Translations under genes and position numbers: made by a program
Notes under the pieces: model-generated
What the model was told of the DNA's origin: nothing
What the model saw: only the letters and a program-made list of their open reading frames with translations
The model's database searches: none
Part shown: positions 4,056 to 48,715 of the stretch, piece after piece
Position numbering within the stretch: position 1 is the first letter of the stretch
Layout of the letters: each line of letters begins with the position of its first letter
UHGV virus genome: UHGV-0199265
Length of the DNA: 48,715 bases
Reading direction: 5' to 3' (one strand)
DNA from: a virus

Positions 4056-4243
4056 ACAGAGCCTCTCCCGTTGATTTAAGGAAATGCCTTGAGGCCGCAC
4101 ATGGCCTCGCTCATATCGGCATCCGTTTTGTGCCGATCCCGGTAGCGACAGAGGAAGAGTTCCAGGCACTGTCTGCCGAGCTTTCACGAAAGCTTGAGCA
4201 GATGGCGGTTGAAGCGGAAAAAAGTGAAGGCGGTGCAGCATGA
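4052..4243 (+). CDS. Hypothetical protein (63 aa)
   Basis: coupled ORF; shares a 20-bp junction sequence with upstream gene end. Confidence 0.35.
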   Translation: MNRASPVDLRKCLEAAHGLAHIGIRFVPIPVATEEEFQALSAELSRKLEQMAVEAEKSEGGAA

Positions 4244-4647
4244 AAGTGAAGACAGAAAGCCTTACAGGACTACACCTTGATGTTGCAGTAGCTATCGCGA
4301 TAGGTGGAGAAGTTACCAGGCCGCAAGATGCTCAGGTCTATTTAAATGGAATGCATCAGCTATGTGGTGAGAAAAGCAAACGCCATAGCCGCTATGTATT
4401 TTCACCATCTACCGACTGGAGCCAGTGCGGAGAGTTAATGGAGAGCTTTTCGATCAGTTGTTACCAGTCGGCAGATCCCGCCACAGGAAAAGTCTACCAC
4501 TGGGTTGGCGTGAGCGAGTTAGCGTCTCCAGGTAAGCGACGTGGACTCCTTGCAGACAATCCCCGCGCTGCTGTATGTCGAGCAGTCGTATTCGCGCAGT
4601 TGGGTAATGAAGTTGAGTTGCCTGATGAACTTAAAAGTGAGGAATGA
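4240..4647 (+). CDS. NinX-like / DUF2591-like phage protein
   Basis: 135 aa starting MKVKTESLTGLHLDVAVAIAIGGEV; resembles enterobacterial prophage DUF2591 proteins (from memory, not searched). Confidence 0.4.
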   Translation: MKVKTESLTGLHLDVAVAIAIGGEVTRPQDAQVYLNGMHQLCGEKSKRHSRYVFSPSTDWSQCGELMESFSISCYQSADPATGKVYHWVGVSELASPGKRRGLLADNPRAAVCRAVVFAQLGNEVELPDELKSEE

Positions 4648-17700: not shown

Positions 17701-18178
17701 CGGATACCGCAAATCCCTGGTTGATAATGGTGGTAAGGCGGGTTAAATCTTCTGCGCTGGTGTTGTATGTTCTGGTTCCGCGCTCAAGCCGGGCGTAAAG
17801 AGTCGCCGTGCCGTTCAGGGATGACTGGGTTGCTTGTGAAACATCAAAGATCCGCTGCATAACTTCGGCCTGCGTCTCTCCAGTACGAACCGAGTTAGCG
17901 ACTTTGTTATTCAGTTCAGTCCAGGCATCGGCATAACTCGCAACCTGTTGCACAGAAAGCGCGGCCAGCAAGCCTTTAGCAACGCCAGAAAGGCTGGACA
18001 TTGTTCGTTCCATCGATCCAATAGAGCGCTCAGTGCGGTTAACGCTGGCTTCAAGGCGGCCCATGCTCCCATTAAGACCGTTCAGTGCCGCATCAACTTC
18101 TCTTCGCGCTGCCAGTAAACGCGAAGTATCCATGTCGACTTCGTAGATAACGCTGCCAGCATCAAACGTTCCAGCCAT
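14732..18178 (-). CDS. Tail tape measure protein
   Basis: 1148 aa, Ala/Gln-rich coiled-coil, lambda-H-like N-terminus, position between chaperone and distal tail genes. Confidence 0.9.
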   Translation of the reverse strand: MAGTFDAGSVIYEVDMDTSRLLAARREVDAALNGLNGSMGRLEASVNRTERSIGSMERTMSSLSGVAKGLLAALSVQQVASYADAWTELNNKVANSVRTGETQAEVMQRIFDVSQATQSSLNGTATLYARLERGTRTYNTSAEDLTRLTTIINQGFAVSGATAQEAENAIIQLSQGIASGVLRGEEFNSVSEQGSRLMVALADSMGVSIGQLRAMAAQGQLTTDVVVKGLLSQGDAIGKEFANTTVSIAKGLQVAGNNVTKFFGENSTVKSFAAGFRDSVITISENLETLGTALIGAAAIMGGRFAGALAMATAAQASRVKATIQGIVATRQSAQQEAAAASVTARKAAADKDAALSALNVATAEYNVAKGSAAEAFALENVIRLRGIYVATSAEAALANNALAASQAKVAATGITFANTMKVVNSVTAPLGGPIGVIAIVAAGWYLYSQRQAEARKEAIAFADTVPDVIKRLKDMNLAQAQGVRADTVTSIEAQKEAISDLKDTISGLQSDYEKYTTLARQYGVTEDQNNGFVIKAKDAANELAKKRRDLDGATATLKQTEDALHLINIQVNQGIVDQMRAARDNAIAIAEAEKQASFLGGTQAFLAEKLGQSTQALKAFNSESLKINWGGKEGEKLIKQAERRLALSKLEGEAKARQQAAYDAEDAGVTDERAIKRLQDNYAATERNTQARKDQKKEDNAAASEAKKLANQQESVNQKLENLRQQSELAAGSTQELSREQAMLRAEQSLGKSASADQVQQARNYAAAVWDTAAAIKARNAVPELKENADYNAQKSQLETLKDAKDAQGNLIISQQQYNQASEQLEQQHQVNLAKIRAGQVVTPQQQAQGEIDPVQRLANQHAQELALIQQFETQKGQITQRGLELMNAANTQYEQQRIAAQWEIWRQQNAGYEVAAAAFDSFAGNASNALTGIITGSMSVSEAMRSLGSTVLNSVINSFVQMGVEWLKSVIMGQAGMTAASGMAIAQGQLIAASMAPAAAMTSLATAGANATPAQAGIASTVGMAQALSIAGARYNGGPVSAGGLYQVGEKGKPEIYQASTGKQYMIPGDNGKVISNKDMQSGGGISVQVNVINQSTGATVQSADGYMQDGSAVVDLLITDIERGGPVSSQMQQTFGLSRKAQGAY

Positions 18179-18268: not shown

Positions 18269-19024
18269 TTATGCCACATCAGCACCGTTAATCAGATGGC
18301 GAAGTGCCTGAACCCCATCGGCGTTGTAGCGAAACGCCTCAACCTGCTTATCTGAGTGTCTCGACTTATCCAGAAAGAACTTGCCGTACTGCTCAGTTTT
18401 CAGGTTGTGTTTATTGGCCACGCGACCGATCTTGTTCGCAGTGCAACCGAGCTGCGCTGCCACTTCACCCGCCGTTGAGTAATGCTCTTCAATCGCAGGC
18501 AGCGGCACAACTTCGTGACCGAGTAGTGGATTAACAAGGGTGGCCACGATCACCTGGTTAGCCGATTCACCAAGCCGCGGGAACATTGACATCAGCTCGC
18601 GGGCCGATGCGATGTTTTTCTCCAGCGCCTGAGCTTTGAGTTGTTCAGCTTTGGCAAGCCGGTATTCAGTAAGCCCTGAGGTGCTTTTGGTCGGCACCTG
18701 GATAGCCTGCATGTCTTCCAGCTTATCAACCAAAGAGCGGCGAACGGCCTTAGACTCGCGTGCGGCCACACGCAGTGCCTGCTTGACCGTCATTTCGATT
18801 ACGACCTGATCGGCGCCGCCTTTAGACTTGTCCATGGGGGTTACAAAAGTTTTGTAACCCTCCCCCTCAAGCTCATCACGAATGCGATCGATGAATACGT
18901 TATTACGTACCGGCTTCTCTCCGCATTGCTTACGCGCCTGATTGACCATTTCAAGCAGCGACTGGCTGTCAATGGTTTTATCAGTGACAATTGAACCTAC
19001 ATTTGCTACATTCTTCTTAGTCAT
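18269..19024 (-). CDS. Antirepressor-like protein (C-terminal KilAC/ANT-like region)
   Basis: 251 aa; C-terminal segment AGEVAAQLGCTANKIGRVANKHNLKTEQYGKFFLDKS resembles phage antirepressor C-terminal domains; sits in the immI-like insertion. Confidence 0.4.
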   Translation of the reverse strand: MTKKNVANVGSIVTDKTIDSQSLLEMVNQARKQCGEKPVRNNVFIDRIRDELEGEGYKTFVTPMDKSKGGADQVVIEMTVKQALRVAARESKAVRRSLVDKLEDMQAIQVPTKSTSGLTEYRLAKAEQLKAQALEKNIASARELMSMFPRLGESANQVIVATLVNPLLGHEVVPLPAIEEHYSTAGEVAAQLGCTANKIGRVANKHNLKTEQYGKFFLDKSRHSDKQVEAFRYNADGVQALRHLINGADVA

Positions 19025-19057
19025 ATACGTTCCTATACGTTGTCAGACTTCAGTAGA

Positions 19058-19088
19058 CCGCCAGCAGCCACTGGCGGTTTTTCTTTTT
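19058..19088 (+). terminator. Orphan plus-strand intrinsic terminator (CCGCCAG-cagcca-CTGGCGG-TTTTTCTTTTT)
   Basis: perfect 7-bp stem followed by T-run on + strand only; no + strand CDS upstream. Confidence 0.5.
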
Positions 19089-19107
19089 GCGCCGTCCAAT
19101 GCGCCTG

Positions 19108-19740
19108 TCAGTGAAGCTCCTTTCTTAATCTTGGTAGCACCCGCGACCAGTTGTCGTCGTTTTGTGGTTCATATGCAATATGCTCAGACGCCTTTGCTAT
19201 AGCCTTTCTCGCTTCTTCAAACGTCCAGCGAAACTCATTACCAAAGTCATAAAACTTACCTGCATACTCTGATTTGATTGTTCGCATTGCTGGGTATAAA
19301 TCTCTTGCAAAGTTTTGCATCCGATTGGTTACATCCCACATCCAAGCGAGTCGACATAGCTCATCATCGGTGAACTGCTTCGCAATCGGCGAATGCGCCA
19401 CTTCCCGATCCAGAATATCCAACACCCAGCGGCGGAACTCTTTGGCGACCGGAGTGCGGGCGAACATTGCTATAAGATGGGCGCCGCGCAAAGAGAAGAC
19501 GCGAACCTTCATTCTGCGGGTAGAGCCATTTATTCCATTGGTCACTGATTCAATGACCATTGTCATTCCCTGAGAGAACTCATCTTCGTACTGAGCGAAG
19601 AGGTTAGAAATTGACTTGGTGCTTTTGTAACCTAGAGCTTTCGCAATATCTGCAGATGTCAGCCAGACACCAGTGACATTTTCTACCGGATTGAGCGTTA
19701 CACCGTGGAAGTTGAAATCTGATTTAGCTACAATGTTCAT
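19108..19740 (-). CDS. ant: Antirepressor Ant (BRO-N domain)
   Basis: BRO-N-like N-terminus MNIVAKSDFNFHGVTL...VWLTSADIAKALGY...RVFSLRGAHLIA; AAGGAA RBS 9 nt before ATG at 19740 (a longer 19821 start with GAGGAG RBS is also possible). Confidence 0.7.
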   Translation of the reverse strand: MNIVAKSDFNFHGVTLNPVENVTGVWLTSADIAKALGYKSTKSISNLFAQYEDEFSQGMTMVIESVTNGINGSTRRMKVRVFSLRGAHLIAMFARTPVAKEFRRWVLDILDREVAHSPIAKQFTDDELCRLAWMWDVTNRMQNFARDLYPAMRTIKSEYAGKFYDFGNEFRWTFEEARKAIAKASEHIAYEPQNDDNWSRVLPRLRKELH

Positions 19741-19812
19741 GTCGATATTTCCTTCGCGGTTATTTTCGATAGAAGCCCCAAAGGTTGCCGCCAATGGGGC
19801 TTCGCTGTTTTT
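19741..19812 (+). ncRNA. Candidate sar-like antisense RNA (~70 nt) covering the ant RBS and the arc-ant spacer
   Basis: TACAAT -10 at 19729-19734 on + strand; perfect 9-bp hairpin GAAGCCCCA/TGGGGCTTC at 19772-19803 followed by T5; mirrors P22 sar arrangement. Confidence 0.45.
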
Positions 19813-19981
19813 ACTGACCATTCATGCGCTCCTCACGCAGGCTTTTTGCCAAACGCTGCACAATTGCAGAGTTAATCGATATCCCATCCATTTCAGCCAT
19901 ACGGCGGATCTCTTCCTTCATTCCTTCTGGCAAACGCAATTGGAAGCTAGAGCTTTTTCTTTCTGTATATAAAGTATCCAT
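19811..19981 (-). CDS. arc: Arc-like ribbon-helix-helix repressor
   Basis: FQLRLPEGMKEEIRRMAEMDGISINSAIVQRL matches Arc/MetJ RHH pattern; 56 aa from ATG with GAGGG RBS; immediately upstream of ant. Confidence 0.7.
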   Translation of the reverse strand: MDTLYTERKSSSFQLRLPEGMKEEIRRMAEMDGISINSAIVQRLAKSLREERMNGQ

Positions 19982-19995
19982 ATCAACCCTCATCT

Positions 19996-20016
19996 ATCAT
20001 GTCACCGTGACATGAT
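19996..20016. promoter_or_regulatory. 21-bp perfect palindromic operator (ATCATGTCAC-c-GTGACATGAT) in the arc/mnt divergent region, plus further GTGAC(A) half-sites up to ~20054
   Basis: perfect dyad just upstream of the arc start; additional imperfect inverted repeat TCACTGTGAC...GTCAATGTGA at 20018-20054. Confidence 0.6.
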
Positions 20017-20080
20017 ATCACTGTGACTCAATTTACGGATAATGTCAATGTGATAGCATCAAGAAAATTTTGAGGTGCTT

Positions 20081-20440
20081 ATGTCAGAAAAACCAGTCCG
20101 CGAATACGATAAATTCATGCTCCGCTTCCCTGATGGTATGCGTGATGCCATAGCTGAGAGAGCCAAGCGTAATGGCCGCTCCATGAACTCTGAGATAGTG
20201 CAGATACTCCAGGACACGCTAGAGGGTGGCTTTTCCCTTCAGATGGATACCGAGTTTGGTAAGGTTTACAACGATCTTATCTCTACAGAAGTAAAAACAT
20301 CTGAAGATTTTGATAAAAACAATGAAAGAATAGACTGGTTGATAGATCAGCTTGTCTGGAAAATCGATACTGACGCGGCAAAACTACGTGAGCTTATGAA
20401 TTTACGTAAAATAGCTAACGAATCTAAAAAACCCACCTGA
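20081..20440 (+). CDS. mnt: Mnt-like ribbon-helix-helix repressor (Arc-type N-terminus plus C-terminal extension)
   Basis: FMLRFPDGMRDAIAERAKRNGRSMNSEIVQIL RHH motif; divergent from arc-ant; RBS tgaggtgcttATG. Confidence 0.65.
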   Translation: MSEKPVREYDKFMLRFPDGMRDAIAERAKRNGRSMNSEIVQILQDTLEGGFSLQMDTEFGKVYNDLISTEVKTSEDFDKNNERIDWLIDQLVWKIDTDAAKLRELMNLRKIANESKKPT

Positions 20441-20451
20441 TGGTGGGTTTT
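20426..20451. terminator. Bidirectional terminator between convergent mnt-like and secreted-protein genes
   Basis: AAAAAA-ACCCACC-tgat-GGTGGGT-TTTT; the mnt-like gene stop codon lies in the loop. Confidence 0.6.
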
Positions 20452-20456
20452 AACGT

Positions 20457-21224
20457 TCATTCATAGTTATGATCTATCTCTGATGGACCACAGCCATAAA
20501 ATTTATCACCAGCCTGAATGACAAATTTGTGTCGAGGTTCACTTGGTACAAATCTAGCCATCATCGATCCACCATTGAAGGTAAAGGAATATTCCCTTCC
20601 ATCCCATCGTGGATTCTTACCCATCATTACACTGCCAGCGATAATCATTGCAGGGTAACGGCCAGTAATCATTGTAACATCCTCCCACACTAGGCAGTTT
20701 GTGGTAAAGGCGTGCTTTTCTTTCATAAAAAATGACTTTGCTTTTGCTCCAGAGAGACTCTCAACCATCCTCATTTCATCTTCTGATTTTTTTTGTAGTG
20801 CCGATGCCTTATCTATTTCGCATTTAGCCCACTGCTCCGTGGTTTTCTTTATTCGGTCAGATACAGCAAAGTTAGATTTGTCCTGGCTGGCGGCAAATAC
20901 CTTTGTTTTATCATCGACGAAAATCATACCATCTTTCTTTTCAGTCAGTGGTGGGCTTACTACATAAGAGCCGTCTGGTCTATATACTGTAAAAGATTTT
21001 CCGTCGAATTTCACATTTGCACTGCCTTTAGTGAGAAGAGTTGGAGGTGAGGAAAAATCCCCAACCGCATACTCACAAACAAGCTTTTCATTAGCCACAG
21101 CCACGCCTGAGGCCATCAAAAGACTAAGCGCAATAAAACCCCTCATATCCCTATCCCCGTTGGTTTGTTTTCGACAGATTAGCAGGGATATGAGGGAGTA
21201 AAAAGACCACCGTGGTTGGCTCAT
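20457..21224 (-). CDS. Secreted / membrane-anchored protein of unknown function (AT-rich moron)
   Basis: 255-aa ORF; ATGA coupling at 21221-21224 supports this start; internal Met at 21146 gives a classical signal peptide MRGFIALSLLMASGVAVA; much lower GC than surroundings. Confidence 0.5.
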   Translation of the reverse strand: MSQPRWSFYSLISLLICRKQTNGDRDMRGFIALSLLMASGVAVANEKLVCEYAVGDFSSPPTLLTKGSANVKFDGKSFTVYRPDGSYVVSPPLTEKKDGMIFVDDKTKVFAASQDKSNFAVSDRIKKTTEQWAKCEIDKASALQKKSEDEMRMVESLSGAKAKSFFMKEKHAFTTNCLVWEDVTMITGRYPAMIIAGSVMMGKNPRWDGREYSFTFNGGSMMARFVPSEPRHKFVIQAGDKFYGCGPSEIDHNYE

Positions 21225-21481
21225 TTCTTCTTCTCTTCACGTTTGCGTCGTCGCTCTTCCCGCAACTCCTCTCGGCGTAAATCATCAAACACCTTTACGA
21301 TCGCTTTCATCATCATGAAATTGACGAAGTGGTGATTAACGCAGCCGTGAATGCGTAACTGCTCGGTGAACTCTTCAGCCGATCGCAGCGCCTCCATCAT
21401 GTTCTTCTCGCCTTTCATGAACTCCGAGAAGTCGCGCCCCGCTCTGGAGGCGCATTCAACGATTCGGTTATTCATGGTCAC
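21221..21481 (-). CDS. Hypothetical protein (86 aa) with Lys/Arg/Glu-rich C-terminal tail
   Basis: translationally coupled (ATGA) on both sides. Confidence 0.4.
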   Translation of the reverse strand: MTMNNRIVECASRAGRDFSEFMKGEKNMMEALRSAEEFTEQLRIHGCVNHHFVNFMMMKAIVKVFDDLRREELREERRRKREEKKK

Positions 21482-22233
21482 GCCGCCGCATACAGCAACT
21501 TCATTTGTCCCTTAACGGGGAACGCAGCCATGCAGCGGGCTTCGAAGTCCTTCTGGTCAATGCTGCAACTGGCAATGTTGGTAACGGCGATCAGTTGCTG
21601 CTCGACCTTCTCCAGTGCATCAGGCTTAAGATGTTGGTGAATCTTCTCCTTGCTGTCCCCGGCGGCTTGTTTGGCTGCCTGATAGACATAATCAGGAAGT
21701 GCTACACCGTACACCCAGCGAGAGGTGATCTGCCCGAACAGAGCCGGGCAACCGCCGACATGACCAAAGTAAGGAAGGCCGGACATTTTCGACAGTGCTT
21801 GATAGAACGGGTCTTTAAAGCGCTTCTCCCAGGACGTTGGTTGCTGGCACACCATCAGGCCGACAATCTGATCCTCGGTGAGCTGGAATTTTTTACTCAG
21901 CAGAAGATTTTTAATGTGTCGGTCACAGGCGCGGGCGAATTTTACTGACAACCAGCGGGCGAATTCCACCGCCAACTCCGGATGAAGCCAGGTCCCGCCG
22001 TTTCGCCCTTTCTCCACTCTGACTAAAAGGGGAGAAAAATCCTCTTTTACGCCAGAGCTAGCAATTCCAAGCTCCTCAGCCAGTTCGGCGATATAAGTTT
22101 TTGTCGCCTCAGTCTTTAGCCAGTCCTTTGGAAGCTTGCCGTGATGCTTTGCAGCAACTGTGGCATTGAACCAGCAATCTGCTGTAAAAGGGAATGAACG
22201 GTCATCGTAATTCATAGGGATGATATTAGACAT
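21478..22233 (-). CDS. KilA-N domain protein
   Basis: N-terminus FTADCWFNATVAAKHHGKLPKDWLKTEATKTYIAELAEELG is KilA-N-like; 251 aa. Confidence 0.55.
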   Translation of the reverse strand: MSNIIPMNYDDRSFPFTADCWFNATVAAKHHGKLPKDWLKTEATKTYIAELAEELGIASSGVKEDFSPLLVRVEKGRNGGTWLHPELAVEFARWLSVKFARACDRHIKNLLLSKKFQLTEDQIVGLMVCQQPTSWEKRFKDPFYQALSKMSGLPYFGHVGGCPALFGQITSRWVYGVALPDYVYQAAKQAAGDSKEKIHQHLKPDALEKVEQQLIAVTNIASCSIDQKDFEARCMAAFPVKGQMKLLYAAA

Positions 22234-35290: not shown

Positions 35291-35320
35291 AAAGCCCCGC
35301 TATTGCGAGGCTCGTTTTTT
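35291..35320. terminator. Bidirectional intrinsic terminator after the lysis cassette
   Basis: GCCCCGC-tatt-GCGAGGC with A-run before and T-run after. Confidence 0.55.
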
Positions 35321-35557
35321 CTCTGCTTGCCTGATGTCAGCCTTATCCCGGTTGCACTGCCCAAGCGCTGATAGCAGGCTGACGTTTAAATCCAGGCTCT
35401 GGCCCCACGTCAGGTTGTCGGGGATTTCCGGTTGCGGAGTGTCAGCCGTCAGGCTGGCTGGTAACGGGACCACCGGTACTTTGACGTAGACCGTTCGCGT
35501 ATTGTTGCAGCCGCTTAACTGCGCCAGCAGGCACAGGGCGATTAGTGCAATCATCAT
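35300..35557 (-). CDS. Outer-membrane spanin (Rz1-like lipoprotein), overlapping Rz in +1 frame
   Basis: MMIALIALCLLAQLSGC lipobox, Pro-rich, ORF embedded in and extending beyond the Rz-like gene. Confidence 0.6.
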   Translation of the reverse strand: MMIALIALCLLAQLSGCNNTRTVYVKVPVVPLPASLTADTPQPEIPDNLTWGQSLDLNVSLLSALGQCNRDKADIRQAEKKRASQ

Positions 35558-35852
35558 TCGCAACAGCAACCCGGATATCAGCCGAGGCTCCAGATGCGTC
35601 CAGTGCGATCTGCTCTTTTGCATGCTGATTGGCCTCGACGATGGTGTTGAAGATGGTCATGGTGGTCAGAACGTTGGAGGTGATCGCCTGAGCTGCGTTT
35701 ACCTGCTGTTCCGCGCCATCTGCTCGCTGCCTTTCCTGTTCGGCTTTGCCTTTGTAGTGGCTGGCAGAGATAGCCAGCGCACCAATCAGCACGACCATGA
35801 GCGCCGGCACCCAGAACTTTTTAACCAGCGCCAGAATGGATTCGGCTGTCAT
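35442..35852 (-). CDS. Inner-membrane spanin (Rz-like)
   Basis: N-terminal TM helix then coiled-coil-rich periplasmic region; position after endolysin. Confidence 0.55.
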   Translation of the reverse strand: MTAESILALVKKFWVPALMVVLIGALAISASHYKGKAEQERQRADGAEQQVNAAQAITSNVLTTMTIFNTIVEANQHAKEQIALDASGASADIRVAVANDDCTNRPVPAGAVKRLQQYANGLRQSTGGPVTSQPDG

Positions 35853-36055
35853 TGCGTCTTACTCTGGTTAACCAGCCGACCAACCACACCACATGCGGCG
35901 ATTACCGCTGTAATGGCGCCCATCGCTCCCGGCGGAATTGCGGTCTTGAGGTCTGGCGGTAGCTCTGCCCATACCGTGGGGATAACCCCGGCCAGCACCA
36001 GTGCATGCATGGAGAACCAGCGCCATGCGCTTTTCCAGTCATCAACGAGTTTCAT
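35849..36055 (-). CDS. Small two-TM membrane protein in lysis cassette (function unknown)
   Basis: 68 aa, ATGA coupled between endolysin and Rz. Confidence 0.4.
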   Translation of the reverse strand: MKLVDDWKSAWRWFSMHALVLAGVIPTVWAELPPDLKTAIPPGAMGAITAVIAACGVVGRLVNQSKTQ

Positions 36056-36501
36056 GAGAGAAATACCTCACGCTCTGCCTTGCGGCGATTCGTTAACCCA
36101 GGCATTACCTTGCCGCCTGACCGGTTCCAGCTCAGGAATGCGTCAGCGGCGCCTTTCACATCACCTGCATTCAGCTTCTTCATCAGCGTTGAGGTGGATA
36201 GCGCCCGCGTACCGATGTTGTAGGCCAGCGACACAAGCGCGTCGTACTGGTTCTGGGTAACGGTAACTTTGAGCATCTTGCTTACTGCCTGGTCAAAGCT
36301 CACCACGCCAGTGCGCAACAGGCGATCCGCCGTTGCGTCGTCAATCTTCATTCCGGGCCTGATAGGCTTCCCGTCTACTTTTCCCGTCCAGCCGTAGCCA
36401 ATCGTCCAGGGATCACCACCGGTGCCAGGGTCTGGATATGCGGTTAACCTGCAACCCTCAAATCGCTTAATCAGCGCAATACCGTTATTACTGATTTGCA
36501 T
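36052..36501 (-). CDS. Endolysin, GH24 (T4/P22-type lysozyme)
   Basis: 149 aa; LIKRFEGCRLTAYPD...GYG...ALVSLAYNIG signature. Confidence 0.85.
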   Translation of the reverse strand: MQISNNGIALIKRFEGCRLTAYPDPGTGGDPWTIGYGWTGKVDGKPIRPGMKIDDATADRLLRTGVVSFDQAVSKMLKVTVTQNQYDALVSLAYNIGTRALSTSTLMKKLNAGDVKGAADAFLSWNRSGGKVMPGLTNRRKAEREVFLS

Positions 36502-36805
36502 CTTTAATCCCCGTCAGGCGCTCCCAGAAATAGGTCAACGCTACGGAGCCCATCGCGCCGCTTATCCCCGCGGTTGCCAGAATCATGTAAATGCTCAGTC
36601 CGCTTTCAATGCTCACCAGGCCAGCAATAACGCCGGTAAACCCTGAAACCACCATTTGGGCAAGAGCATTGATCAAGCTCCATGTTGCCTTGCTCTGCTT
36701 CACATCTATCAGGTAGCGGACAAGTCCACCCCAGCAAGCAATGATCAGCAGAACCAGCCAGGACATCCCGGCAATGCTCTCTTTGTCTTGCATACGCTTA
36801 GCCAT
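36488..36805 (-). CDS. Holin (lambda S-like class I)
   Basis: 105 aa, three hydrophobic segments, charged C-terminus, precedes endolysin. Confidence 0.7.
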   Translation of the reverse strand: MAKRMQDKESIAGMSWLVLLIIACWGGLVRYLIDVKQSKATWSLINALAQMVVSGFTGVIAGLVSIESGLSIYMILATAGISGAMGSVALTYFWERLTGIKDANQ

Positions 36806-43909: not shown

Positions 43910-44778
43910 GACCGGTTCTCCCGATAGCTGTCCCAGGTAAACGAAATCGTGCATCCGCCGCCGTCGTTCATGCGGTCGATGACGCGCTCGCCGATAAACT
44001 GCGTCAGCTCATCCTTAGGCAGGTTGCTGATCAGGATCGTCGGCTTCAGGCGCTCGTAGCGGGTGTTGATGATTTCAAACATGATCATCTTCTCGGCTTC
44101 GCTGCCAAACTGCACACCAACCTCATCGACAATCAGAAGGTCTGGCTTCGTGAAGTAGCGGATCACCTCATCCTCAGTGCGCGTGGCTGTTTTTGACCAG
44201 GTCGATTTAAACTCCCGGGCAATCTTCAGCGCCGTCGTGAAAATGACTGAGCTTTGGTGGTGCTCAATCACATGACGGGCAATGGCCAGCGCAAGGTGGT
44301 TTTTACCGGTACCAGGCTTGCCACACATAACCAACCCACCGCCCTGCTGGAGGCGATCAGTCCATTTCGATGCGTAGGCCTGGCAGACCCGTAATGCTCG
44401 CTCAGAATCCTTCCCAACAGGCTTGTAGCTGTCCAGAGTGCACGTGGAGAAGCGCTCTGGTATGTCCAGCTGTCGAAGCAGCCTTTCTGCAGTTTGCTGG
44501 CGAACTCGCTTATCCCAGCGAACCTTTTCATCCTTCAGAAAATTCAGTTCGTCTTCCAGGCAGCCCGGGCAGCGTGTCGGCGGTGATGGCAGATTGATGA
44601 TGCTGCTGCTGGTCAGGATCCGCTTTCGCTGCTCATACTCGCCATGCTTTTCGCAACAGACGCGCTCAATAACCACCTCGCAATTCGGGATGTCTTCCGG
44701 TGGCTTACTCAGCTGATCAAGCATCCGCTCAATGGCAGTGATTTTTTCTTCCAGTTCCATGATCAGTCCCTCGCCCAT
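43906..44778 (-). CDS. DnaC-like helicase loader (replication protein P functional position)
   Basis: Walker A MCGKPGTGKNHLALAIA, DEVG Walker B; follows the O-like gene. Confidence 0.8.
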   Translation of the reverse strand: MGEGLIMELEEKITAIERMLDQLSKPPEDIPNCEVVIERVCCEKHGEYEQRKRILTSSSIINLPSPPTRCPGCLEDELNFLKDEKVRWDKRVRQQTAERLLRQLDIPERFSTCTLDSYKPVGKDSERALRVCQAYASKWTDRLQQGGGLVMCGKPGTGKNHLALAIARHVIEHHQSSVIFTTALKIAREFKSTWSKTATRTEDEVIRYFTKPDLLIVDEVGVQFGSEAEKMIMFEIINTRYERLKPTILISNLPKDELTQFIGERVIDRMNDGGGCTISFTWDSYRENRS

Positions 44779-45617
44779 GATGGGATTTCAGTCTGCCCGT
44801 AGTCCTTCCCTGCGAAATTTTCGGCAACTCGCACCTGTTGACTTGGTTGAGGCTTGGCACCATTTGGCTCAAACAGGCCTTGCCAGCCATTGGCGATGCT
44901 GCGGTTGATAATTTCTTCGGGCGCGTAACCGTTCAGTCTGCAGCGGTCCAGCAGGTTGATAGCCTGGGTGACCGTCTGCTGAGACTTGATCGGCTTTTTC
45001 AGGTCGCGACGATATGCCACCCATGACGACCAGATTTCTGCAGAAAGCCAGTCAGGCAACTGAACAGCTAACGCATCGAACGAAACCGCCCGTGGGGATT
45101 TAGGGGGGTTATTAATATTGTCTTTATTGTCTTTTGTATGTTTGTATTTTGTGTTTACCTGATTCGGGTAATAGGCGTTACCTGATTCTGGTAAACTTTT
45201 CTTACCTGATTCGGGTAATGTTACCTTTTTCAGGTAAGGTTTTTTTTCTGTACCTTTTACGGGTAAAGATGACCATTCGCTGACCGTTTTATTAATCCCG
45301 ATAACACGACCGGTTTGAGTTAATATCCCCCGCTTAACCAGGACGCTTTTTGCAGCTGAGCACTTATGCGGGAGAATGCCGGTCAGCTCCGAGAGCTGCT
45401 CGTTACTGACCCAGTCAGATTTCTTGTTGAAGCCGTATGTTTTGCGCATGACAGCCATGAACACCAAAAGCTGATGCTGCGACAGACCCGCACGCATGAC
45501 AGCTTCAAGGAGCTCATTGGCGATGCGCGTAAACCCATCGTCGAGATCTGCCACGCGCAGCTCCTGTAGTGCCACGACAGGCACAGGGAAATTGATTACT
45601 TCGACAGTATTTGCCAT
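44763..45617 (-). CDS. O: Replication initiator O-like protein
   Basis: N-terminus VADLDDGFTRIANELLEA...LLVFMAVMRKTYGFNK...NEQLSELTGI matches lambda O N-domain; iterons embedded in the gene. Confidence 0.8.
   Translation of the reverse strand: MANTVEVINFPVPVVALQELRVADLDDGFTRIANELLEAVMRAGLSQHQLLVFMAVMRKTYGFNKKSDWVSNEQLSELTGILPHKCSAAKSVLVKRGILTQTGRVIGINKTVSEWSSLPVKGTEKKPYLKKVTLPESGKKSLPESGNAYYPNQVNTKYKHTKDNKDNINNPPKSPRAVSFDALAVQLPDWLSAEIWSSWVAYRRDLKKPIKSQQTVTQAINLLDRCRLNGYAPEEIINRSIANGWQGLFEPNGAKPQPSQQVRVAENFAGKDYGQTEIPSWARD
45155..45237. repeat. Replication origin iterons: four 17-bp dyad repeats TTACC-N7-GGTAA, then AT-rich stretch (45090-45150)
   Basis: TTACCTGATTCGGGTAA at 45155 and 45202, TTACCTGATTCTGGTAA at 45178, TTACCTTTTTCAGGTAA at 45221; spacing 23/24/19 bp. 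Confidence 0.75.
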
Positions 45618-45651: not shown

Positions 45652-45942
45652 TCAGGCCTCAAAGTGTTGCGAGCACTTTGGGGCCATCTCTTTTCTAAGC
45701 AGGCTTGCTACTTCTTTCGCCAGTCGAGACATATCGTCATCGACCACTCCCCACTCCAAGACCGCCAGTAACATCGCTATTTTCGGAATCCAGGTTTCCT
45801 TCCATTTACTGATGCTCGACTTTGTAAGACCCATGGCATTGGCCACATTGGTCGTCCCCTTCATTGCGATTTGGTTATGCAGCCATGACTCAATATTCCT
45901 GGCCTGGTGTTTGTTTCGTGCTGTTGAATTCTCCATCTGCAA
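45652..45942 (-). CDS. cII: CII-like transcriptional activator
   Basis: WKETWIPKIAMLLAVLEWGVVDDDMSRLAKEV vs lambda CII WKRDWIPKFSMLLAVLEWGVVDDDMARLARQV. Confidence 0.8.
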   Translation of the reverse strand: MQMENSTARNKHQARNIESWLHNQIAMKGTTNVANAMGLTKSSISKWKETWIPKIAMLLAVLEWGVVDDDMSRLAKEVASLLRKEMAPKCSQHFEA

Positions 45943-45961
45943 TACTTCCTCTGGTGTTGTT

Positions 45962-46003
45962 TGGAATGGCTGAATTACTCAGTCAGAACCCGCTGACTGC
46001 TCA
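45962..46003 (-). promoter_or_regulatory. Long bipartite RNA hairpin between cro and cII (candidate nutR/put-like or tR1-associated element)
   Basis: GCTGAATT-gag-CAGTCAG-cgggtt-CTGACTG-agt-AATTCAGC; 15 bp of stem. Confidence 0.35.
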
Positions 46004-46015
46004 ATTCAGCTTTGT

Positions 46016-46207
46016 TTAATCAGGATTTCTGTTATGTGGGAAAGGCTTGATCTCTTCAGCCTTAATTTTTCCATCAGGCAGGGTGTTAACGAAAATCTTC
46101 CGTCCTACCCGGATAGCTTTACTAATTGCGGTCTGGTGAACGCCGATGGCATCAGCAGCTCTTGCCTGTCCAACTTCGTCAACGTATTCAGCTAAAGAAA
46201 TTTTCAT
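46016..46207 (-). CDS. cro: Cro-like repressor
   Basis: 63 aa from internal ATG with GGAG RBS; HTH QARAADAIGVHQTAISKAI; divergent from cI across the operator region. Confidence 0.7.
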   Translation of the reverse strand: MKISLAEYVDEVGQARAADAIGVHQTAISKAIRVGRKIFVNTLPDGKIKAEEIKPFPHNRNPD

Positions 46208-46238
46208 GTGGTTAGCTCCTATCAACTCATGAGCAAAC

Positions 46239-46300
46239 AATACCACAAGTATTAAACATTGCAATACCGCAAGCATTTTTAAAATAAGAGCATTGGTATT
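46239..46300. promoter_or_regulatory. OR region: three operator sites AATAC-N5-GTATT (46239-46253, 46263-46277, 46286-46300) with pR/pRM
   Basis: AATACcacaaGTATT, AATACcgcaaGCATT, AAGAGcattgGTATT; 23-24 bp centre spacing; minus-strand TTGCAA -35 for pR. Confidence 0.6.
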
Positions 46301-46311
46301 ACTATTTGAAA

Positions 46312-47022
46312 ATGGAAAAGAAAAAGACACTGACATCGGCTCAGATCGCTGACGCAGAAAGGCTGAAAGCCCTCTATGAAGCCAAGAAAAAAGAGCTTGG
46401 GATCACACAGCAATCAATAGCTGACATGCTAGACATATCTCAGGGTGGCGTTGGGCATTACCTGAATGGCAGGAATGCCCTTAATGCTGCCGTGGCTGCT
46501 GTTTTTGCCAGAGCCCTCCAGGTGGATGTCTCTGATTTTAGCCCCAGCCTTGCGAAAGAAATATCTGCAATGAGTGCTGCCGCTACATCGAATGCCAAGT
46601 ATGTAGGCCAGTACGCCCCAGGCATTAAATACCCTGTATTAAGCAAGATTCAGGCTGGGAATTGGTCGGAAGCGTGCGAGCCGTATGCACTTAAAGATAT
46701 CGATCTATGGCTCGAATCAGACGCTCACATCCAGGGGGAAGCGTTCTGGTTGTTGGTCGAGGGGGAATCCATGACTGCCCCGGTCGGGCTCAGCATACCT
46801 GAGGGTACATATGTTCTTTTTGATACCGGAAGGGAGCCGGTCAACGGAAGCCTCGTTATTGCAAAACTCTCGGAATCAAACGAGGCGACATTTAAAAAAC
46901 TGATCATTGATGGTGACCAGAAGTACCTGAAGGGCTTAAACCCTCAATGGCCATTGGTTCCCATCAACGGAAACTGTCGAATCATTGGTGTGGCCGTAGA
47001 AACTAAGTTAAGGCTTGTGTGA
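46312..47022 (+). CDS. cI: CI repressor (lambda cI-like, HTH + S24 autopeptidase domain)
   Basis: MEKKKTLTSAQIADAERLKALYEAKKKELGITQQSIAD...FWLLVEGESMTAP...TFKKLI parallels lambda CI throughout. Confidence 0.9.
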   Translation: MEKKKTLTSAQIADAERLKALYEAKKKELGITQQSIADMLDISQGGVGHYLNGRNALNAAVAAVFARALQVDVSDFSPSLAKEISAMSAAATSNAKYVGQYAPGIKYPVLSKIQAGNWSEACEPYALKDIDLWLESDAHIQGEAFWLLVEGESMTAPVGLSIPEGTYVLFDTGREPVNGSLVIAKLSESNEATFKKLIIDGDQKYLKGLNPQWPLVPINGNCRIIGVAVETKLRLV

Positions 47023-47080
47023 TCGGCAGCATGCCGCAGACTTACCGAAAACACGGTTGATACAGCAAGGAGTGCAGTTC

Positions 47081-47524
47081 ATGATTGAAGAAAAAATTCT
47101 TATCCTCTATCCCACGCTAGTCCAGGCGGGGCTTGCCATAACAGCCTATATGGCTCCAACGCCACTTATAACAGTAGGTAGCTTTGATTCTCCCTTGTCT
47201 TTTTATATAACTATGGCTGTTTTCCTAGATTCATCAAAAGAGTATGTAACTACCCTTGACGTTAAGCATAACGGTGATTCAGTTTTAGACTCGAACGCAA
47301 ACAATGACGAAAATCATTCGCAAAATTTTATGTTCACAAAACCTGATGAGAACAGTCTCCTTGTTGGAACTCAGTTGCATCTAAAAGGAGTTAAGCCTAC
47401 AACCCCAGGTACATATGACATAACTTTGGAGTTATTTGAAATAGATGAACAAAGCAGGCAGCATTTGGTTGATGAAAAGACTTGCTCTATAGTAATCGTT
47501 AAAACAACGTTGAGGGATCAATAG
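47081..47524 (+). CDS. AT-rich membrane/secreted protein of unknown function at the rexA position
   Basis: ATG at 47081 after AAGGAG; N-terminal hydrophobic segment ILILYPTLVQAGLAITAYMA; beta-rich remainder; GC far below genome average. Confidence 0.5.
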   Translation: MIEEKILILYPTLVQAGLAITAYMAPTPLITVGSFDSPLSFYITMAVFLDSSKEYVTTLDVKHNGDSVLDSNANNDENHSQNFMFTKPDENSLLVGTQLHLKGVKPTTPGTYDITLELFEIDEQSRQHLVDEKTCSIVIVKTTLRDQ

Positions 47525-47616
47525 TGACAGCAAGGATGTACAAGCTGAGGCCTGAAGATGAAGAACGAATCCCTCAACCACATAATAATGATGATGGAGG
47601 GGGCGGAGGAGACGAT

Positions 47617-47826
47617 ATGCTTCAGAGAGTGAAAGAACTTGAAAACAAAGTCGCAACCCTTGTAACCGATGTTGCAATCATCAAAGACAAGCTAGCTTCC
47701 AAGGAAGATATTCAGTCAGTAAAAACAGAGCTACATAAGGAGTTGAATGCTCAAACATGGAAAATCATTACAGCTATAGTGATAACCGTGTTACTAGCTG
47801 TTTTTTCTAAATATTTAATTAAATAA
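47617..47826 (+). CDS. XhlA-like small membrane protein (coiled-coil + C-terminal TM) at the rexB position
   Basis: ATG at 47617 after GAGGAG (the track ORF extends to 47524); LQRVKELENKVATL... then WKIITAIVITVLLAVF TM; AT-rich. Confidence 0.5.
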   Translation: MLQRVKELENKVATLVTDVAIIKDKLASKEDIQSVKTELHKELNAQTWKIITAIVITVLLAVFSKYLIK

Positions 47827-47850
47827 CCCGGCCACCGCGCCGGTTTTTTA
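47827..47850 (+). terminator. Intrinsic terminator after the immunity-region cassette (t-imm-like)
   Basis: CCGGC-caccgc-GCCGG-TTTTTT directly after stop. Confidence 0.55.
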
Positions 47851-47855
47851 TTGCC

Positions 47856-48059
47856 CTACTCTTCCCTCAGCATCAGCACGTCCAGAGCCAGCTCCACAGG
47901 CAGATCTACCTGGTCTCCCTGCCACAACATCTGAATCATCTCTATCAACGCCTCTCTTGATGGCTCGCGCTTCTCAACCAGCAGCTGCATAACCGCTATC
48001 CCGATAATCTGCGCTATCTGCGGATGCATTTCTGCGAAAAACTCATCCTCATTCGACAT
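47856..48059 (-). CDS. Hypothetical small protein (67 aa) between t-imm and OL, transcribed divergently from pL
   Basis: AAAGGGGTG RBS; acidic; no lambda counterpart at this position. Confidence 0.4.
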   Translation of the reverse strand: MSNEDEFFAEMHPQIAQIIGIAVMQLLVEKREPSREALIEMIQMLWQGDQVDLPVELALDVLMLREE

Positions 48060-48159
48060 GCCAACACCCCTTTATGATGTTTTTTTGAGCATAACAGCAC
48101 TCTTTACAAAAATAAATCAACTTTAAAATCATACCTTTAGTAGTTTTATTAAATTTCAT

Positions 48160-48201
48160 AATACTAGCGGTATTGATATAAAATAATACCCGGAGTATTA
48201 T
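48160..48201 (+). promoter_or_regulatory. OL/pL region: two operator sites AATAC-N5-GTATT (48160-48174, 48185-48199) overlapping TTGATA-N18-TATTAT promoter
   Basis: AATACtagcgGTATT and AATACccggaGTATT, same consensus as the OR sites; 25-bp centre spacing. Confidence 0.55.
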
Positions 48202-48280
48202 CATCTCATCCAAACAACAACGTTGGCGCCGGTAATAGGTAACAACGCTCCGTTAGCCGCGACAAGGCAAAGGTGAAGAG

Positions 48281-48388
48281 ATGATCCGCGAAGAAGACAA
48301 GCCTGCATGGCGTAATTTTTGGTTAAAGGTCGTTCCGTTTTTGGTTGCTGTTCTCGCAGTTAGCTATCCGTGCTGGGGTGGCAAATGA
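48281..48388 (+). CDS. Small hydrophobic peptide (35 aa), first gene after pL
   Basis: AGGTGA RBS; FWLKVVPFLVAVLAVSYPCW single TM; <60 aa so absent from track. Confidence 0.3.
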   Translation: MIREEDKPAWRNFWLKVVPFLVAVLAVSYPCWGGK

Positions 48389-48498
48389 GCAAACAAGGCA
48401 TTCGTTCACTGATTTACTGCCTGCTGATCTGCGGCGTTATCTGGACAGCGTTGATTATCAAAATTCTGCACGTTACGGGGGTGTTCAATGGCTAACTC
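48385..48498 (+). CDS. Small hydrophobic peptide (37 aa), Hok/type-I-toxin-like composition
   Basis: ATGA-coupled; SLIYCLLICGVIWTALIIKIL TM. Confidence 0.3.
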
Positions 48499-48682
48499 AA
48501 TTCCTAACAACGGACGCGCCGTGATGATGCGCAATCGCCGCACCGGTGCCGCCTGGCTGGTCAGCTTCGACTATCGCGACGGCAGCTACTGGCATGAGCC
48601 GCAGGGAAATCTGCGCCACATCCGCCGGCCATACGCTTCACGCAGTATCGAACCGAACCTGGTACCAGCCGGGACGCATTAA
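48488..48682 (+). CDS. Hypothetical basic protein (64 aa), possible N-like candidate
   Basis: Arg-rich N-terminal segment GRAVMMRNRRTGAAW; overlaps preceding peptide ORF. Confidence 0.3.
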   Translation: MANSIPNNGRAVMMRNRRTGAAWLVSFDYRDGSYWHEPQGNLRHIRRPYASRSIEPNLVPAGTH

Positions 48683-48715
48683 CCGCGCATATCAGCGCAC
48701 GAATTTAACTGAGCT

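What the first reader, a model, noticed from the sequence alone, without database searches (positions are those of the whole stretch)
47081..47826. AT-rich two-gene membrane-protein cassette at the rexAB position of the immunity region
Position: directly after cI and before a t-imm-like terminator, exactly where lambda carries rexA-rexB, sits a strongly AT-rich pair (GC clearly below the ~55% of surrounding genes). Genes: a 147-aa protein with an N-terminal signal/anchor helix and beta-rich body, and a 69-100-aa coiled-coil protein with a C-terminal TM (XhlA-like). Expression context: they would be co-transcribed with the repressor in a lysogen. Neither resembles RexA/RexB, SieB or a known Abi system. 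Hypothesis: a compact superinfection-exclusion or abortive-infection module made of a sensor/scaffold plus a small membrane effector.
Basis: partly seen in the sequence, partly recalled or inferred. Interest (0 to 1): 0.78.

Follow-up and report, generated by a model that had tools for sequence, protein, structure and literature searches.

The report
Two-gene cassette behind the prophage repressor
Right behind its repressor gene, where phage lambda keeps its RexAB anti-phage genes, this Klebsiella prophage carries a widespread but never-studied gene pair (a small antibody-fold cytoplasmic protein plus a tail-anchored, probably trimeric membrane protein) that is a good candidate for a new phage-exclusion module, though no function has been shown.

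Summary
Between cI (46306-47022) and a strong terminator (47828-47851) lie two overlapping genes, orfA (47081-47524) and orfB (47524-47826). They form the most AT-rich 746 bp of the window (GC 0.386 against 0.525). Operator-like sites and a PL-like promoter follow at 48160-48201, so this is the rexAB slot. One detail is wrong: A is not membrane-anchored. It is an all-beta, Ig-like, apparently cytoplasmic protein. B has a disordered N-terminal extension, a coiled coil carrying a canonical trimer-type beta-layer motif (LASKED), and a C-terminal transmembrane helix. The pair is conserved: 55 of 66 loci found through B show cI-A-B, and 24 of 24 loci found through A have B next. Salmonella phage epsilon34 genes 45/44 are homologues, noted in 2008 as unknowns. 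New here: B contains a second, internal start, whose GGAGG is held at a synonymous site in 31 of 34 lineages. The A gene plus the B extension evolve as one swappable module, separate from a strongly constrained B core. There is no match to RexAB, SieB, Pfam XhlA or PADLOC. The phage has its own lysis cassette elsewhere. Best reading: a repressor-co-expressed phage-exclusion module with a variable sensor and a conserved membrane effector. The function is untested.

The parts
46306..47022 (+). cI-type repressor gene, upstream member of the presumed operon (the true start may be ATG 46312)
   Evidence: Pfam HTH_3 1.2e-8 and Peptidase_S24 5.4e-22; phrog_4 2.9e-48
47067..47072 (+). Shine-Dalgarno AAGGAG, 8 nt before the orfA ATG
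   Evidence: read directly from the sequence
47081..47524 (+). orfA: 147-aa all-beta Ig-like protein with no signal peptide or anchor; the variable partner
47512..47517 (+). GAGGGA Shine-Dalgarno-like motif inside the 3' end of orfA, 6 nt before the GTG start of long orfB
   Evidence: sequence; long-form starts abut or overlap the A stop in most loci
47524..47826 (+). orfB long form: 100 aa. The GTG shares one base with the orfA stop TAG (47522-47524). It consists of a disordered N-terminal extension (residues 1-31) plus the core.
47605..47609 (+). Internal GGAGG, 7 nt before ATG 47617, encoded by Gly codons GGA-GGA
   Evidence: the corresponding codon is GGA in 31 of 34 sequence clusters, against 20% GGA at neighbouring Gly codons
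47617..47826 (+). orfB short form / core: 69 aa, made of a coiled coil and a C-terminal TM helix
   Evidence: internal start is ATG in 31 of 34 clusters and GTG in 3 of 34; short-only homologues exist in L042/L043; PGAP calls the 69-aa form on 237 contigs
47692..47709 (+). Beta-layer motif L57-A-S-K-E-D62, the signature of a trimeric coiled coil
   Evidence: K60 is invariant and A58, E61 and D62 are at least 90% conserved; profile hits to PDB 5APX and 5APZ across the 'MATKDD' motif; consensus [aliphatic]-A-T-K-[polar]-[DE] taken from PMC4786415
47758..47805 (+). C-terminal hydrophobic helix W79-F94 (tail anchor), followed by SKYLIK
   Evidence: Kyte-Doolittle 19-residue maximum 2.39 at residues 81-99; the same holds in 46 of 46 homologues; helical in AF2 with pLDDT 79-93
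47828..47851 (.). Bidirectional intrinsic terminator CCGGCCACCGCGCCGG with T-runs on both strands (t-imm equivalent)
48160..48201 (+). OL-like operators (48160, 48185) overlapping a candidate PL (TTGATA-17-TATTAT); this is the right boundary of the slot

Best explanation
orfA-orfB is a self-contained accessory ('moron') cassette. It is most likely transcribed with cI from the lysogenic promoter and most likely protects the lysogen against other phages. Proposed mechanism, marking what is shown and what is inferred. B is a tail-anchored inner-membrane protein (shown: a C-terminal hydrophobic helix in every homologue). Its cytoplasmic stalk is a parallel trimeric coiled coil with one beta-layer (inferred from the LASKED motif and matches to solved trimers). 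B is made in two forms. The long form is translationally coupled to A (shown: the start abuts the A stop, and the extension is under purifying selection). The 69-aa core is made from an internal start with its own GGAGG (shown: conserved at a synonymous site; production of the protein is inferred). A is a cytoplasmic Ig-like binding domain with no conserved catalytic residues (shown at the level of a model and an alignment). A docks on, or co-functions with, the variable N-terminal extension of long B (inferred from covariation of A with the extension). When A recognises a protein of an incoming phage, the conserved B core perturbs the membrane or triggers premature lysis, aborting the infection in a Rex-like way (inferred; untested). 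The core-only form may set the threshold or act as an antagonist, as Esc does for SieB or an antiholin does for a holin (speculative).
For: Position and expression context: the pair lies between cI and OL/PL, with no predicted terminator between cI and A and a strong terminator after B. In epsilon34 the A homologue starts on the last base of the cI stop codon (locus coordinates 2783-3421 and 3421-3891), and that paper already placed genes 44 and 45 in the repressor operon (PMC2629481). Hotspot: the same slot holds rexAB in lambda and bstA in BTP1 (PMC8585504), and unrelated cargo in sister Klebsiella phages. Conservation as a pair: 55 of 66 loci found through B have an A-family gene directly upstream, and 38 of 42 distinct genes upstream of A are cI/S24-type. 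All 24 loci found through A have B downstream. Sensor/effector pattern: A types are 14-43% identical to each other, while B cores reach 83-96% identity at saturated synonymous sites (median pS 0.76, pN/pS 0.10). The B extension covaries with A (rho 0.45), whereas the B core covaries with neither (rho 0.05). Other partners can replace A: a Zn-ribbon protein in L050, L059 and L092. Dual start. Structure: A is an Ig-like sandwich related to Ig-like repeats of surface proteins. The B motif matches trimeric beta-layer structures. Foreign composition: the pair is the lowest-GC stretch of the window. The pair is not the phage's lysis system.
Against: No experiment or database annotation links either family to defence, and PADLOC finds nothing. 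Position in a hotspot is circumstantial, because non-defence conversion genes also sit behind repressors. Three TM helices per trimer is small for a pore, so higher-order assembly would be needed. B with an N-terminal extension also occurs without any A (L009, L033, L061), so A is not obligatory for every B subfamily. The covariation of A with the B extension could reflect physical linkage alone. A shows purifying, not diversifying, selection within types. The AF2 models have only moderate confidence (A pLDDT 71.5; B 64.8 with pTM 0.28). Co-transcription with cI is inferred, not shown.
Confidence: 0.42

Rival explanations
1. Superinfection exclusion at the entry step rather than abortive infection. 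The A3B3 complex would sit on the cytoplasmic face of the inner membrane and block genome or ejection-protein translocation of incoming phages without killing the cell, functionally like P22 SieA, T4 Imm or HK97 gp15.
For: The context evidence is the same as above. A membrane-anchored stalk displaying three Ig-like binding domains near the membrane is well placed to meet ejected proteins. Small prophage membrane proteins are the classic Sie agents (review PMC11436027).
Against: Known injection blockers expose sequence to the periplasm or span the membrane several times (own knowledge of Imm, SieA and gp15). B has at most about 6 residues beyond its single helix, and A has no signal peptide. 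The two-part variable/constant architecture and the dual start are more typical of triggered effectors.
Confidence: 0.2
2. A lysogenic-conversion or prophage-housekeeping function unrelated to excluding other phages. Examples would be modulating repressor cleavage or induction (like 434 Hex), modulating host proteolysis (as reported for RexB), or a membrane or stationary-phase role like the tail-anchored ElaB/YqjD proteins.
For: Genes behind repressors are not always defence genes: 434 Hex is co-transcribed with the repressor (PMC3564112, listed). The size and topology of B (about 100 aa, coiled coil, C-terminal anchor) resemble ElaB/YqjD (own knowledge; not tested). PADLOC finds nothing.
Against: The cassette associates freely with repressors only 7-23% identical to each other. 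A related partner-plus-B pair also occurs away from any repressor, next to tail genes on a phage-plasmid, which argues against a repressor-specific role. The many exchangeable A types are hard to explain for a housekeeping role. No Pfam hit to DUF883/ElaB.
Confidence: 0.2
3. A lysis accessory (an XhlA/holin-like pair) that belongs to the phage's own lysis programme and is merely located oddly.
For: There are weak PHROG matches of B residues 31-99 to families labelled hemolysin (phrog_1193, E 0.005) and holin (phrog_689, E 0.007). Some NCBI and UniRef records name homologues 'hemolysin XhlA'.
Against: A complete holin, endolysin, second holin-like gene and Rz/Rz1 cassette lies at 35300-36805 on the other strand. 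The pair sits on the lysogenic strand behind cI in 55 of 66 loci. None of 46 homologues reaches Pfam XhlA at E <= 0.1.
Confidence: 0.04
4. B alone is the functional unit, a small membrane toxin or exclusion protein. A would be an unrelated neighbouring moron, an immunity or antitoxin protein for B, or a chaperone, rather than a sensor.
For: B occurs without A behind HTH-only repressors (L009, L033, L061) and as a short form alone (L042, L043), and it occurs with a different upstream protein (L050, L059, L092). The B core has its own ribosome-binding site.
Against: All 24 A-retrieved loci have B. The A stop and the long-B start abut or overlap in most loci. The B extension covaries with A.
Confidence: 0.12

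Closest known systems
Lambda RexA/RexB (abortive infection system in the cI operon)
   Same: The genomic slot is the same: downstream of cI, upstream of t-imm and OL/PL, on the lysogenic strand. Both are two genes, with a cytoplasmic protein first and a membrane protein second. A second way of expressing the membrane component alone exists in both: lambda has a promoter for rexB alone (own knowledge), and here there is an internal start for the B core.
   Different: There is no sequence similarity (Pfam and PADLOC). RexA is about 279 aa and RexB is a 4-TM protein (own knowledge). Here A is a 147-aa Ig-like domain and B is a single-pass tail-anchored coiled coil. Function is untested.
Salmonella phage epsilon34 genes 45 and 44 (also g341c and NM-3)
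   Same: These are true homologues in the same order behind the repressor. gp44 is 52% identical to B (E 7e-30). gp45 is 24% identical to A over the full length (E 1e-4) and belongs to the same HMM family.
   Different: They are a different A type, with a B core that lacks 7 residues. They lie in a P22-like podovirus with N directly after PL. [quoted passage not shown]
P22/lambda SieB with its in-frame internal product Esc
   Same: Both are prophage-expressed membrane-associated exclusion genes from which a shorter in-frame protein is also made (own knowledge: Ranade and Poteete 1993). This is analogous to the long and short B forms inferred here.
   Different: There is no similarity to Pfam SieB. 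SieB lies in the PL operon, not behind cI. The dual products of B are inferred from sequence only.
XhlA of Bacillus PBSX-type lysis cassettes (Pfam PF10779)
   Same: The architecture matches the B core: about 70-90 aa, an N-terminal coiled coil and a C-terminal TM helix. There are weak PHROG matches, and some database records use the name.
   Different: No Pfam match in 0 of 46 homologues. B is not in a lysis cassette and carries the Gly-rich linker plus N-terminal extension.
Beta-layer (alpha/beta) trimeric coiled coils; DUF1640 membrane proteins (Hartmann et al. 2016, PMC4786415)
   Same: B has the consensus [aliphatic]-A-T-K-[polar]-[DE] (L-A-S-K-E-D) at a conserved position in its stalk, followed by a C-terminal TM helix as in DUF1640. 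Profile hits to the crystallised MATKDD constructs reach E 7e-5.
   Different: No Pfam DUF1640 hit. There is only one motif copy. The trimeric state is not tested, and the AF2 monomer shows a continuous helix.
BstA of Salmonella prophage BTP1
   Same: It occupies the same slot behind cI and is an experimentally shown prophage defence, which illustrates what the slot is used for (PMC8585504).
   Different: It is a single large DNA-binding protein with an anti-BstA DNA element, unrelated in sequence and architecture.

Membership tests
RexAB | Sequence membership in the RexA and RexB families (Pfam and PADLOC models) | tested here: not met
   No hit at E <= 1 in Pfam or PADLOC for A or B
RexAB | Location in the cI operon between cI and t-imm/OL-PL | tested here: met
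RexAB | Polytopic (4-TM) membrane channel component | tested here: not met
   B has a single C-terminal hydrophobic helix
RexAB | Phage-triggered membrane depolarisation and abortive infection | not testable with these tools
   needs infection and membrane-potential assays
XhlA (Pfam PF10779) | Match to the family profile | tested here: not met
   0 of 46 B homologues at E <= 0.1; only weak PHROG 'hemolysin'/'holin' hits at E 0.005-0.03
XhlA (Pfam PF10779) | Small protein with N-terminal coiled coil and C-terminal TM helix | tested here: met
XhlA (Pfam PF10779) | Location in a lysis cassette next to holin and endolysin genes | tested here: not met
   The lysis cassette is at 35300-36805; B lies behind cI in 55 of 66 loci
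SieB | Match to the Pfam SieB profile | tested here: not met
   no hit
PHROG 6324 (unknown function) | Match to the family profile | tested here: met
   B residues 20-100 against profile positions 19-94 of 94, E 1.5e-29
PHROG 5881 (unknown function) | Match to the family profile | tested here: inconclusive
   A residues 25-127, E 7.5e-4
Ig-like beta-sandwich fold (E-set-like; Pfam PF16403 Bact_surface_Ig-like as nearest sequence relatives) | Seven-to-nine-strand beta-sandwich | tested here: met
Ig-like beta-sandwich fold (E-set-like; Pfam PF16403 Bact_surface_Ig-like as nearest sequence relatives) | Direct match of A to PF16403 | tested here: not met
   Pfam scan of A gives no PF16403 hit. Only the A-family profile hits repeats inside large PF16403 proteins (E 5e-19 to 1e-4)
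Beta-layer trimeric coiled coil / DUF1640-like | Motif [aliphatic]-A-T-K-[polar]-[DE] within a coiled coil | tested here: met
   L57-A-S-K-E-D62; K60 is invariant and A58, E61 and D62 are at least 90% conserved
Beta-layer trimeric coiled coil / DUF1640-like | Trimeric assembly with a beta-layer | not testable with these tools
   Only a monomer could be modelled; needs SEC-MALS, crosslinking or a structure
Beta-layer trimeric coiled coil / DUF1640-like | Match to Pfam DUF1640 | tested here: not met
   No hit among 46 members at E <= 0.1
Known defence systems (PADLOC-DB v2.0.0) | Any component model match | tested here: not met
   0 families at E <= 1 for A, B and the 67-aa neighbour

The most novel reading that the evidence does not exclude
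A previously unrecognised class of prophage defence, widespread in Enterobacterales other than E. coli. Its effector would be a trimeric, tail-anchored beta-layer coiled-coil membrane protein. That effector is wired to interchangeable cytoplasmic sensor proteins (many Ig-like types, or a Zn-ribbon protein) through a variable N-terminal docking extension. It would be regulated by a built-in dual translation start that yields sensor-coupled and free effector forms. Recombination at the conserved Gly-linker/ribosome-binding site would swap specificities.
Probability: 0.3. Interest if true: 0.8.

Novelty: new variant of a known kind. Interest (0 to 1): 0.62.

Why it matters
The rexAB slot behind the prophage repressor is one of the oldest known sites of phage-against-phage defence, yet how RexAB works is still unclear after 60 years. 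This pair fills the same slot in many Klebsiella, Enterobacter, Salmonella, Kosakonia, Serratia, Edwardsiella and related prophages. It is much smaller (147 + 100 aa) and has a clean modular layout: swappable binding domain, linker, constrained membrane core. That would make it a tractable model for how a cytoplasmic sensor switches on a membrane effector. For Klebsiella phage therapy it could be a common, unannotated source of phage resistance in lysogens. Two findings are directly testable whatever the function turns out to be. One is the internal start conserved at a synonymous site. The other is the module boundary inside a gene.

Tried and rejected
1. DNA search of the cassette plus cI against 50,697 phage genomes matched only the downstream terminator and 67-aa gene, in 9 Klebsiella phages.
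2. A tblastn search of A against phages found nothing.
3. The cassette DNA against 5,426 complete E. coli genomes, in distant mode, gave no match.
4. B against plasmids gave one distant hit, on a phage-plasmid.
5. Pfam, NCBIfam and PADLOC gave nothing significant for A or B. The Pfam 'Falstatin inhibitor' hit for A (E 0.014, below the cut-off) reflects the shared Ig-like fold, not a functional lead.
6. PDB sequence search with the A profile gave nothing.
7. BFVD fold search returned only uncharacterised viral proteins. The afdb50 library was unavailable.
8. Rfam on 45800-48715 gave no RNA family, so there is no evidence for an antisense regulator like P22 sas. Antisense promoter and terminator matches inside orfA are no more than chance.
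9. Diversifying selection on A was rejected: within types, pN/pS is 0.04-0.3.
10. A recent sweep as the reason for B-core conservation was rejected: synonymous sites are saturated.
11. The first genome contigs attempt, with the broad alignment, failed because no conserved stretch was available.
12. Six literature searches found no study of either family beyond the 2008 epsilon34 remark.

Full report
**What is there**

The right end of the window is a lambdoid immunity region.
- On the minus strand lie a CII homologue (45652-45942, Pfam Phage_CII 1e-30) and a Cro homologue (46016-46336, Pfam Cro 4e-23).
- On the plus strand lies a cI-type repressor (46306-47022, HTH_3 + Peptidase_S24).
- orfA starts 58 nt after the cI stop, behind an AAGGAG. 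It runs 47081-47524 and encodes 147 aa.
- orfB starts with a GTG that shares its first base with the last base of the orfA stop codon. It runs 47524-47826 and encodes 100 aa.
- A five-pair, all-GC hairpin with T-runs on both strands follows at 47828-47851.
- No terminator is predicted between cI and orfA.
- Operator-like sites AATACYnnnnGTATT occur twice between cro and cI (46239, 46263). They occur twice again at 48160 and 48185, overlapping the best promoter match of the region (TTGATA-17-TATTAT, 48173-48201, plus strand).

The pair therefore lies between cI and OL/PL, the position of rexAB in lambda. One difference from lambda is a conserved 67-aa gene on the opposite strand (47856-48059, phrog_3946) that shares the terminator.

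The pair has GC 0.386. That is the lowest of all 746-bp windows in the 48.7 kb (window mean 0.525).

**Are the genes real?**

Yes.
- B has 77 homologues in the 5.8-billion-protein collection. They come from Klebsiella, Enterobacter, Salmonella, Kosakonia, Edwardsiella, Cedecea, Serratia, Yersinia, Pantoea, Pluralibacter and Cronobacter.
- B belongs to phrog_6324, a family of unknown function (E 1.5e-29).
- A at first seemed nearly orphan, with 3 homologues. I then fetched 66 loci through B and extracted the gene in front of it. This gave 35 distinct proteins that align end to end with A at 14-43% identity and all match one HMM.
- An exhaustive profile search found 108 representatives: stand-alone proteins of about 130-150 aa, plus repeats inside giant surface proteins.
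- Close pairs show purifying selection in A (pN/pS 0.04-0.3), in the B core (about 0.05-0.10) and in the B N-terminal extension (about 0.2).

**Conserved arrangement**

- In 55 of 66 loci the order is repressor, A, B on one strand, with the A stop abutting or overlapping the B start.
- 38 of 42 distinct genes upstream of A are cI/S24-type.
- In the reverse test, 24 of 24 loci retrieved with three different A proteins have a B homologue directly downstream.
- Salmonella phage epsilon34 has the same trio (gp46 repressor, gp45, gp44, then OL/PL and N). gp44 is 52% identical to B, and gp45 is 24% identical to A. [quoted passage not shown] I found no later work on them.
- The identical cassette sits next to repressors that are only 7-23% identical to the one in this window.
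- In sister Klebsiella phages that share the downstream 67-aa gene, the slot holds other cargo. One carries a ParA-like ATPase; another carries small unknown ORFs.
- The slot is a recognised mosaic hotspot that also houses the BstA defence (PMC8585504).

**Protein A**

AlphaFold2 with a 45-sequence alignment gives an eight-strand beta-sandwich (pLDDT 71.5, pTM 0.70).

The N-terminal hydrophobicity of this particular A (Kyte-Doolittle 1.62) is not conserved in the family, and the N-termini are acidic. A is therefore most likely cytoplasmic.

The only near-invariant residues are Pro, Gly, Tyr and Ile. This points to a binding or scaffold domain, not an enzyme.

**Protein B**

- Residues 1-29 are predicted disordered, and residues 30-99 form one long helix.
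- The last 19 residues are strongly hydrophobic in 46 of 46 homologues. B is therefore a tail-anchored protein with at most about six residues beyond the membrane.
- The family profile matches crystallised GCN4 fusions that carry the 'MATKDD' beta-layer motif (5APX E 7e-5, 5APZ). B has L57-A-S-K-E-D62, with K60 invariant and A58, E61 and D62 at least 90% conserved.
- Hartmann et al. give the consensus [aliphatic]-A-T-K-[polar]-[DE]. They show that all such structures are trimers, and note the motif in DUF1640 membrane proteins (PMC4786415). I infer a parallel trimeric stalk for B. This is not tested.
- None of the 46 homologues reaches Pfam XhlA or DUF1640. 'XhlA-like' is therefore a resemblance of architecture, backed only by weak PHROG hits.

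1. B has two starts.
   - The long ORF is kept open from the A stop in every lineage, and its extension is under purifying selection.
   - At the end of a Gly-rich linker there is a conserved internal Met: ATG in 31 of 34 sequence clusters and GTG in 3.
   - This Met is preceded at a fixed 7-nt spacing by GGAGG. The Gly codon that supplies the A is GGA in 31 of 34 clusters, whereas neighbouring Gly codons use GGA only 20% of the time (binomial P about 1e-18; the lineages are not fully independent).
   - Conservation at a synonymous site argues for a working internal ribosome-binding site and so for a 69-aa core product.
   - Short-only homologues exist where A is absent (L042, L043).
2. The evolutionary module boundary lies inside B.
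   - Pairwise identity of the B extension tracks that of A (Spearman 0.45; 0.36 without near-identical pairs).
   - The B core tracks neither A nor its own extension (0.05, -0.01).
   - 112 of 630 pairs combine at least 85% identical cores with under 30% identical A.
   - These cores differ at most synonymous sites (median pS 0.76, pN/pS 0.10). The core is therefore old and strongly constrained, not recently spread.
   - In a few loci A is replaced by a Zn-ribbon protein (L050, L059). That pair also occurs on an Enterobacter phage-plasmid away from any repressor, next to tail genes. So 'partner + B' is a mobile two-gene unit.

**Interpretation**

The pair is not the phage's lysis system. A holin, an endolysin, a second holin-like gene and Rz/Rz1 lie at 35300-36805. 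It matches no known defence model and no RexA, RexB or SieB profile.

The following features fit a prophage-expressed exclusion module with a sensor and a membrane effector, working like Rex without being related to it:
- the slot it occupies;
- its likely co-expression with cI;
- its foreign base composition;
- its free association with many repressors;
- its architecture: variable binder, linker, constrained membrane core.

I rate this reading at about 0.4. The rivals are rated as follows:
- exclusion at the entry step, 0.2;
- a non-defence lysogenic function, 0.2;
- B acting alone with A as modulator, 0.12;
- a lysis accessory, 0.04.

All functional steps are inferred, and nothing here shows activity against phage. 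The dual-start and module-boundary results stand on sequence evidence regardless of function.

**Verdict**

The feature is real and mostly correctly described. It was known only as an unexplained gene pair in epsilon34. It is a new variant of a known kind: accessory cargo of the repressor operon with a sensor-plus-membrane-protein layout. Interest is 0.62.

Noticed in passing
window 47856-48059 (minus strand): A 67-aa ORF (phrog_3946, E 8.5e-38, unknown function) converges on the same bidirectional terminator as orfB and lies between it and OL/PL. This stretch is 90-95% identical in four Klebsiella phages whose cI-proximal cargo differs, so it marks the right flank of the variable slot. Lambda has no gene here.
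   Followed up: partly
window 46239-46277 and 48160-48201: Operator-like half-palindromes AATACYnnnnGTATT occur twice in the cro-cI intergenic region and twice about 1.9 kb to the right. The latter two overlap a 10/12 sigma-70 match on the plus strand (candidate PL).
   Followed up: partly
window 45155-45244: Four iteron-like repeats (TTACCTGATTCGGGTAA-type, spacing 19-24 nt) lie in an AT-rich dip (GC 0.355) inside the ORF 44763-45617. From its position beside cII and its resemblance to annotated sister phages, this is the O-like replication gene (not scanned against protein families here). The repeats probably mark the origin of replication.
   Followed up: partly
L050 (about 1912-2271), L059 (about 4101-4451), L092 3049-3417: In these loci the gene in front of the B homologue is not an Ig-like A but a protein of about 116-122 aa with CPxCxS...CKxC (Zn-ribbon-like). 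In L092 (Enterobacter asburiae phage-plasmid NZ_CP083846) this pair lies away from any repressor, between a P22AR-C antirepressor-like gene, a lipoprotein gene and the tape-measure gene. There RefSeq names the B homologue 'hemolysin XhlA'.
   Followed up: partly
L002 2579-3950 (Klebsiella phage ST11-VIM1phi8.2) and L003 3077-3983 (vB_Kpn_RAH1): The same cI-to-67-aa-gene slot carries different cargo here: a 49-aa ORF plus a 358-aa 'ParA-like' ATPase (weak NCBIfam ParA match, far below the cut-off) in one phage, and small unknown ORFs in the other. These may be further exclusion candidates.
   Followed up: partly
L043 about 6232-6438: Directly after a short (69-aa) B homologue comes a second small ORF (68 aa) with a similar coiled-coil-plus-hydrophobic-tail look. 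It may be a tandem paralogue.
   Followed up: no
window about 18270-22230 (minus strand): The second most AT-rich patch of the window (about 20240-21000) lies here. It includes a 255-aa ORF (20457-21224) with no Pfam match, flanked by a KilA-N/P63C gene (21478-22233) and a Bro-N/P22AR-C antirepressor-like gene (19108-19821). It sits just upstream of the 1148-aa ORF 14732-18178, which I take by size and position (not tested) to be the tape-measure gene. This looks like a second moron hotspot, in the same kind of place as the B-like pair of L092.
   Followed up: partly
window 35300-36805 (minus strand): A complete lysis cassette lies here: holin (phrog_785), endolysin (phrog_7), a second small holin-like protein (phrog_1356), Rz-like i-spanin and an embedded Rz1-like o-spanin with a lipobox (LSGC).
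   Followed up: yes
cassette 47081-47826 against the E. coli genome collection: Cassette DNA has no match, even in distant blastn mode, in 5,426 complete E. coli genomes, although homologues occur in many other Enterobacterales genera. Protein-level absence from E. coli could not be tested.
   Followed up: partly
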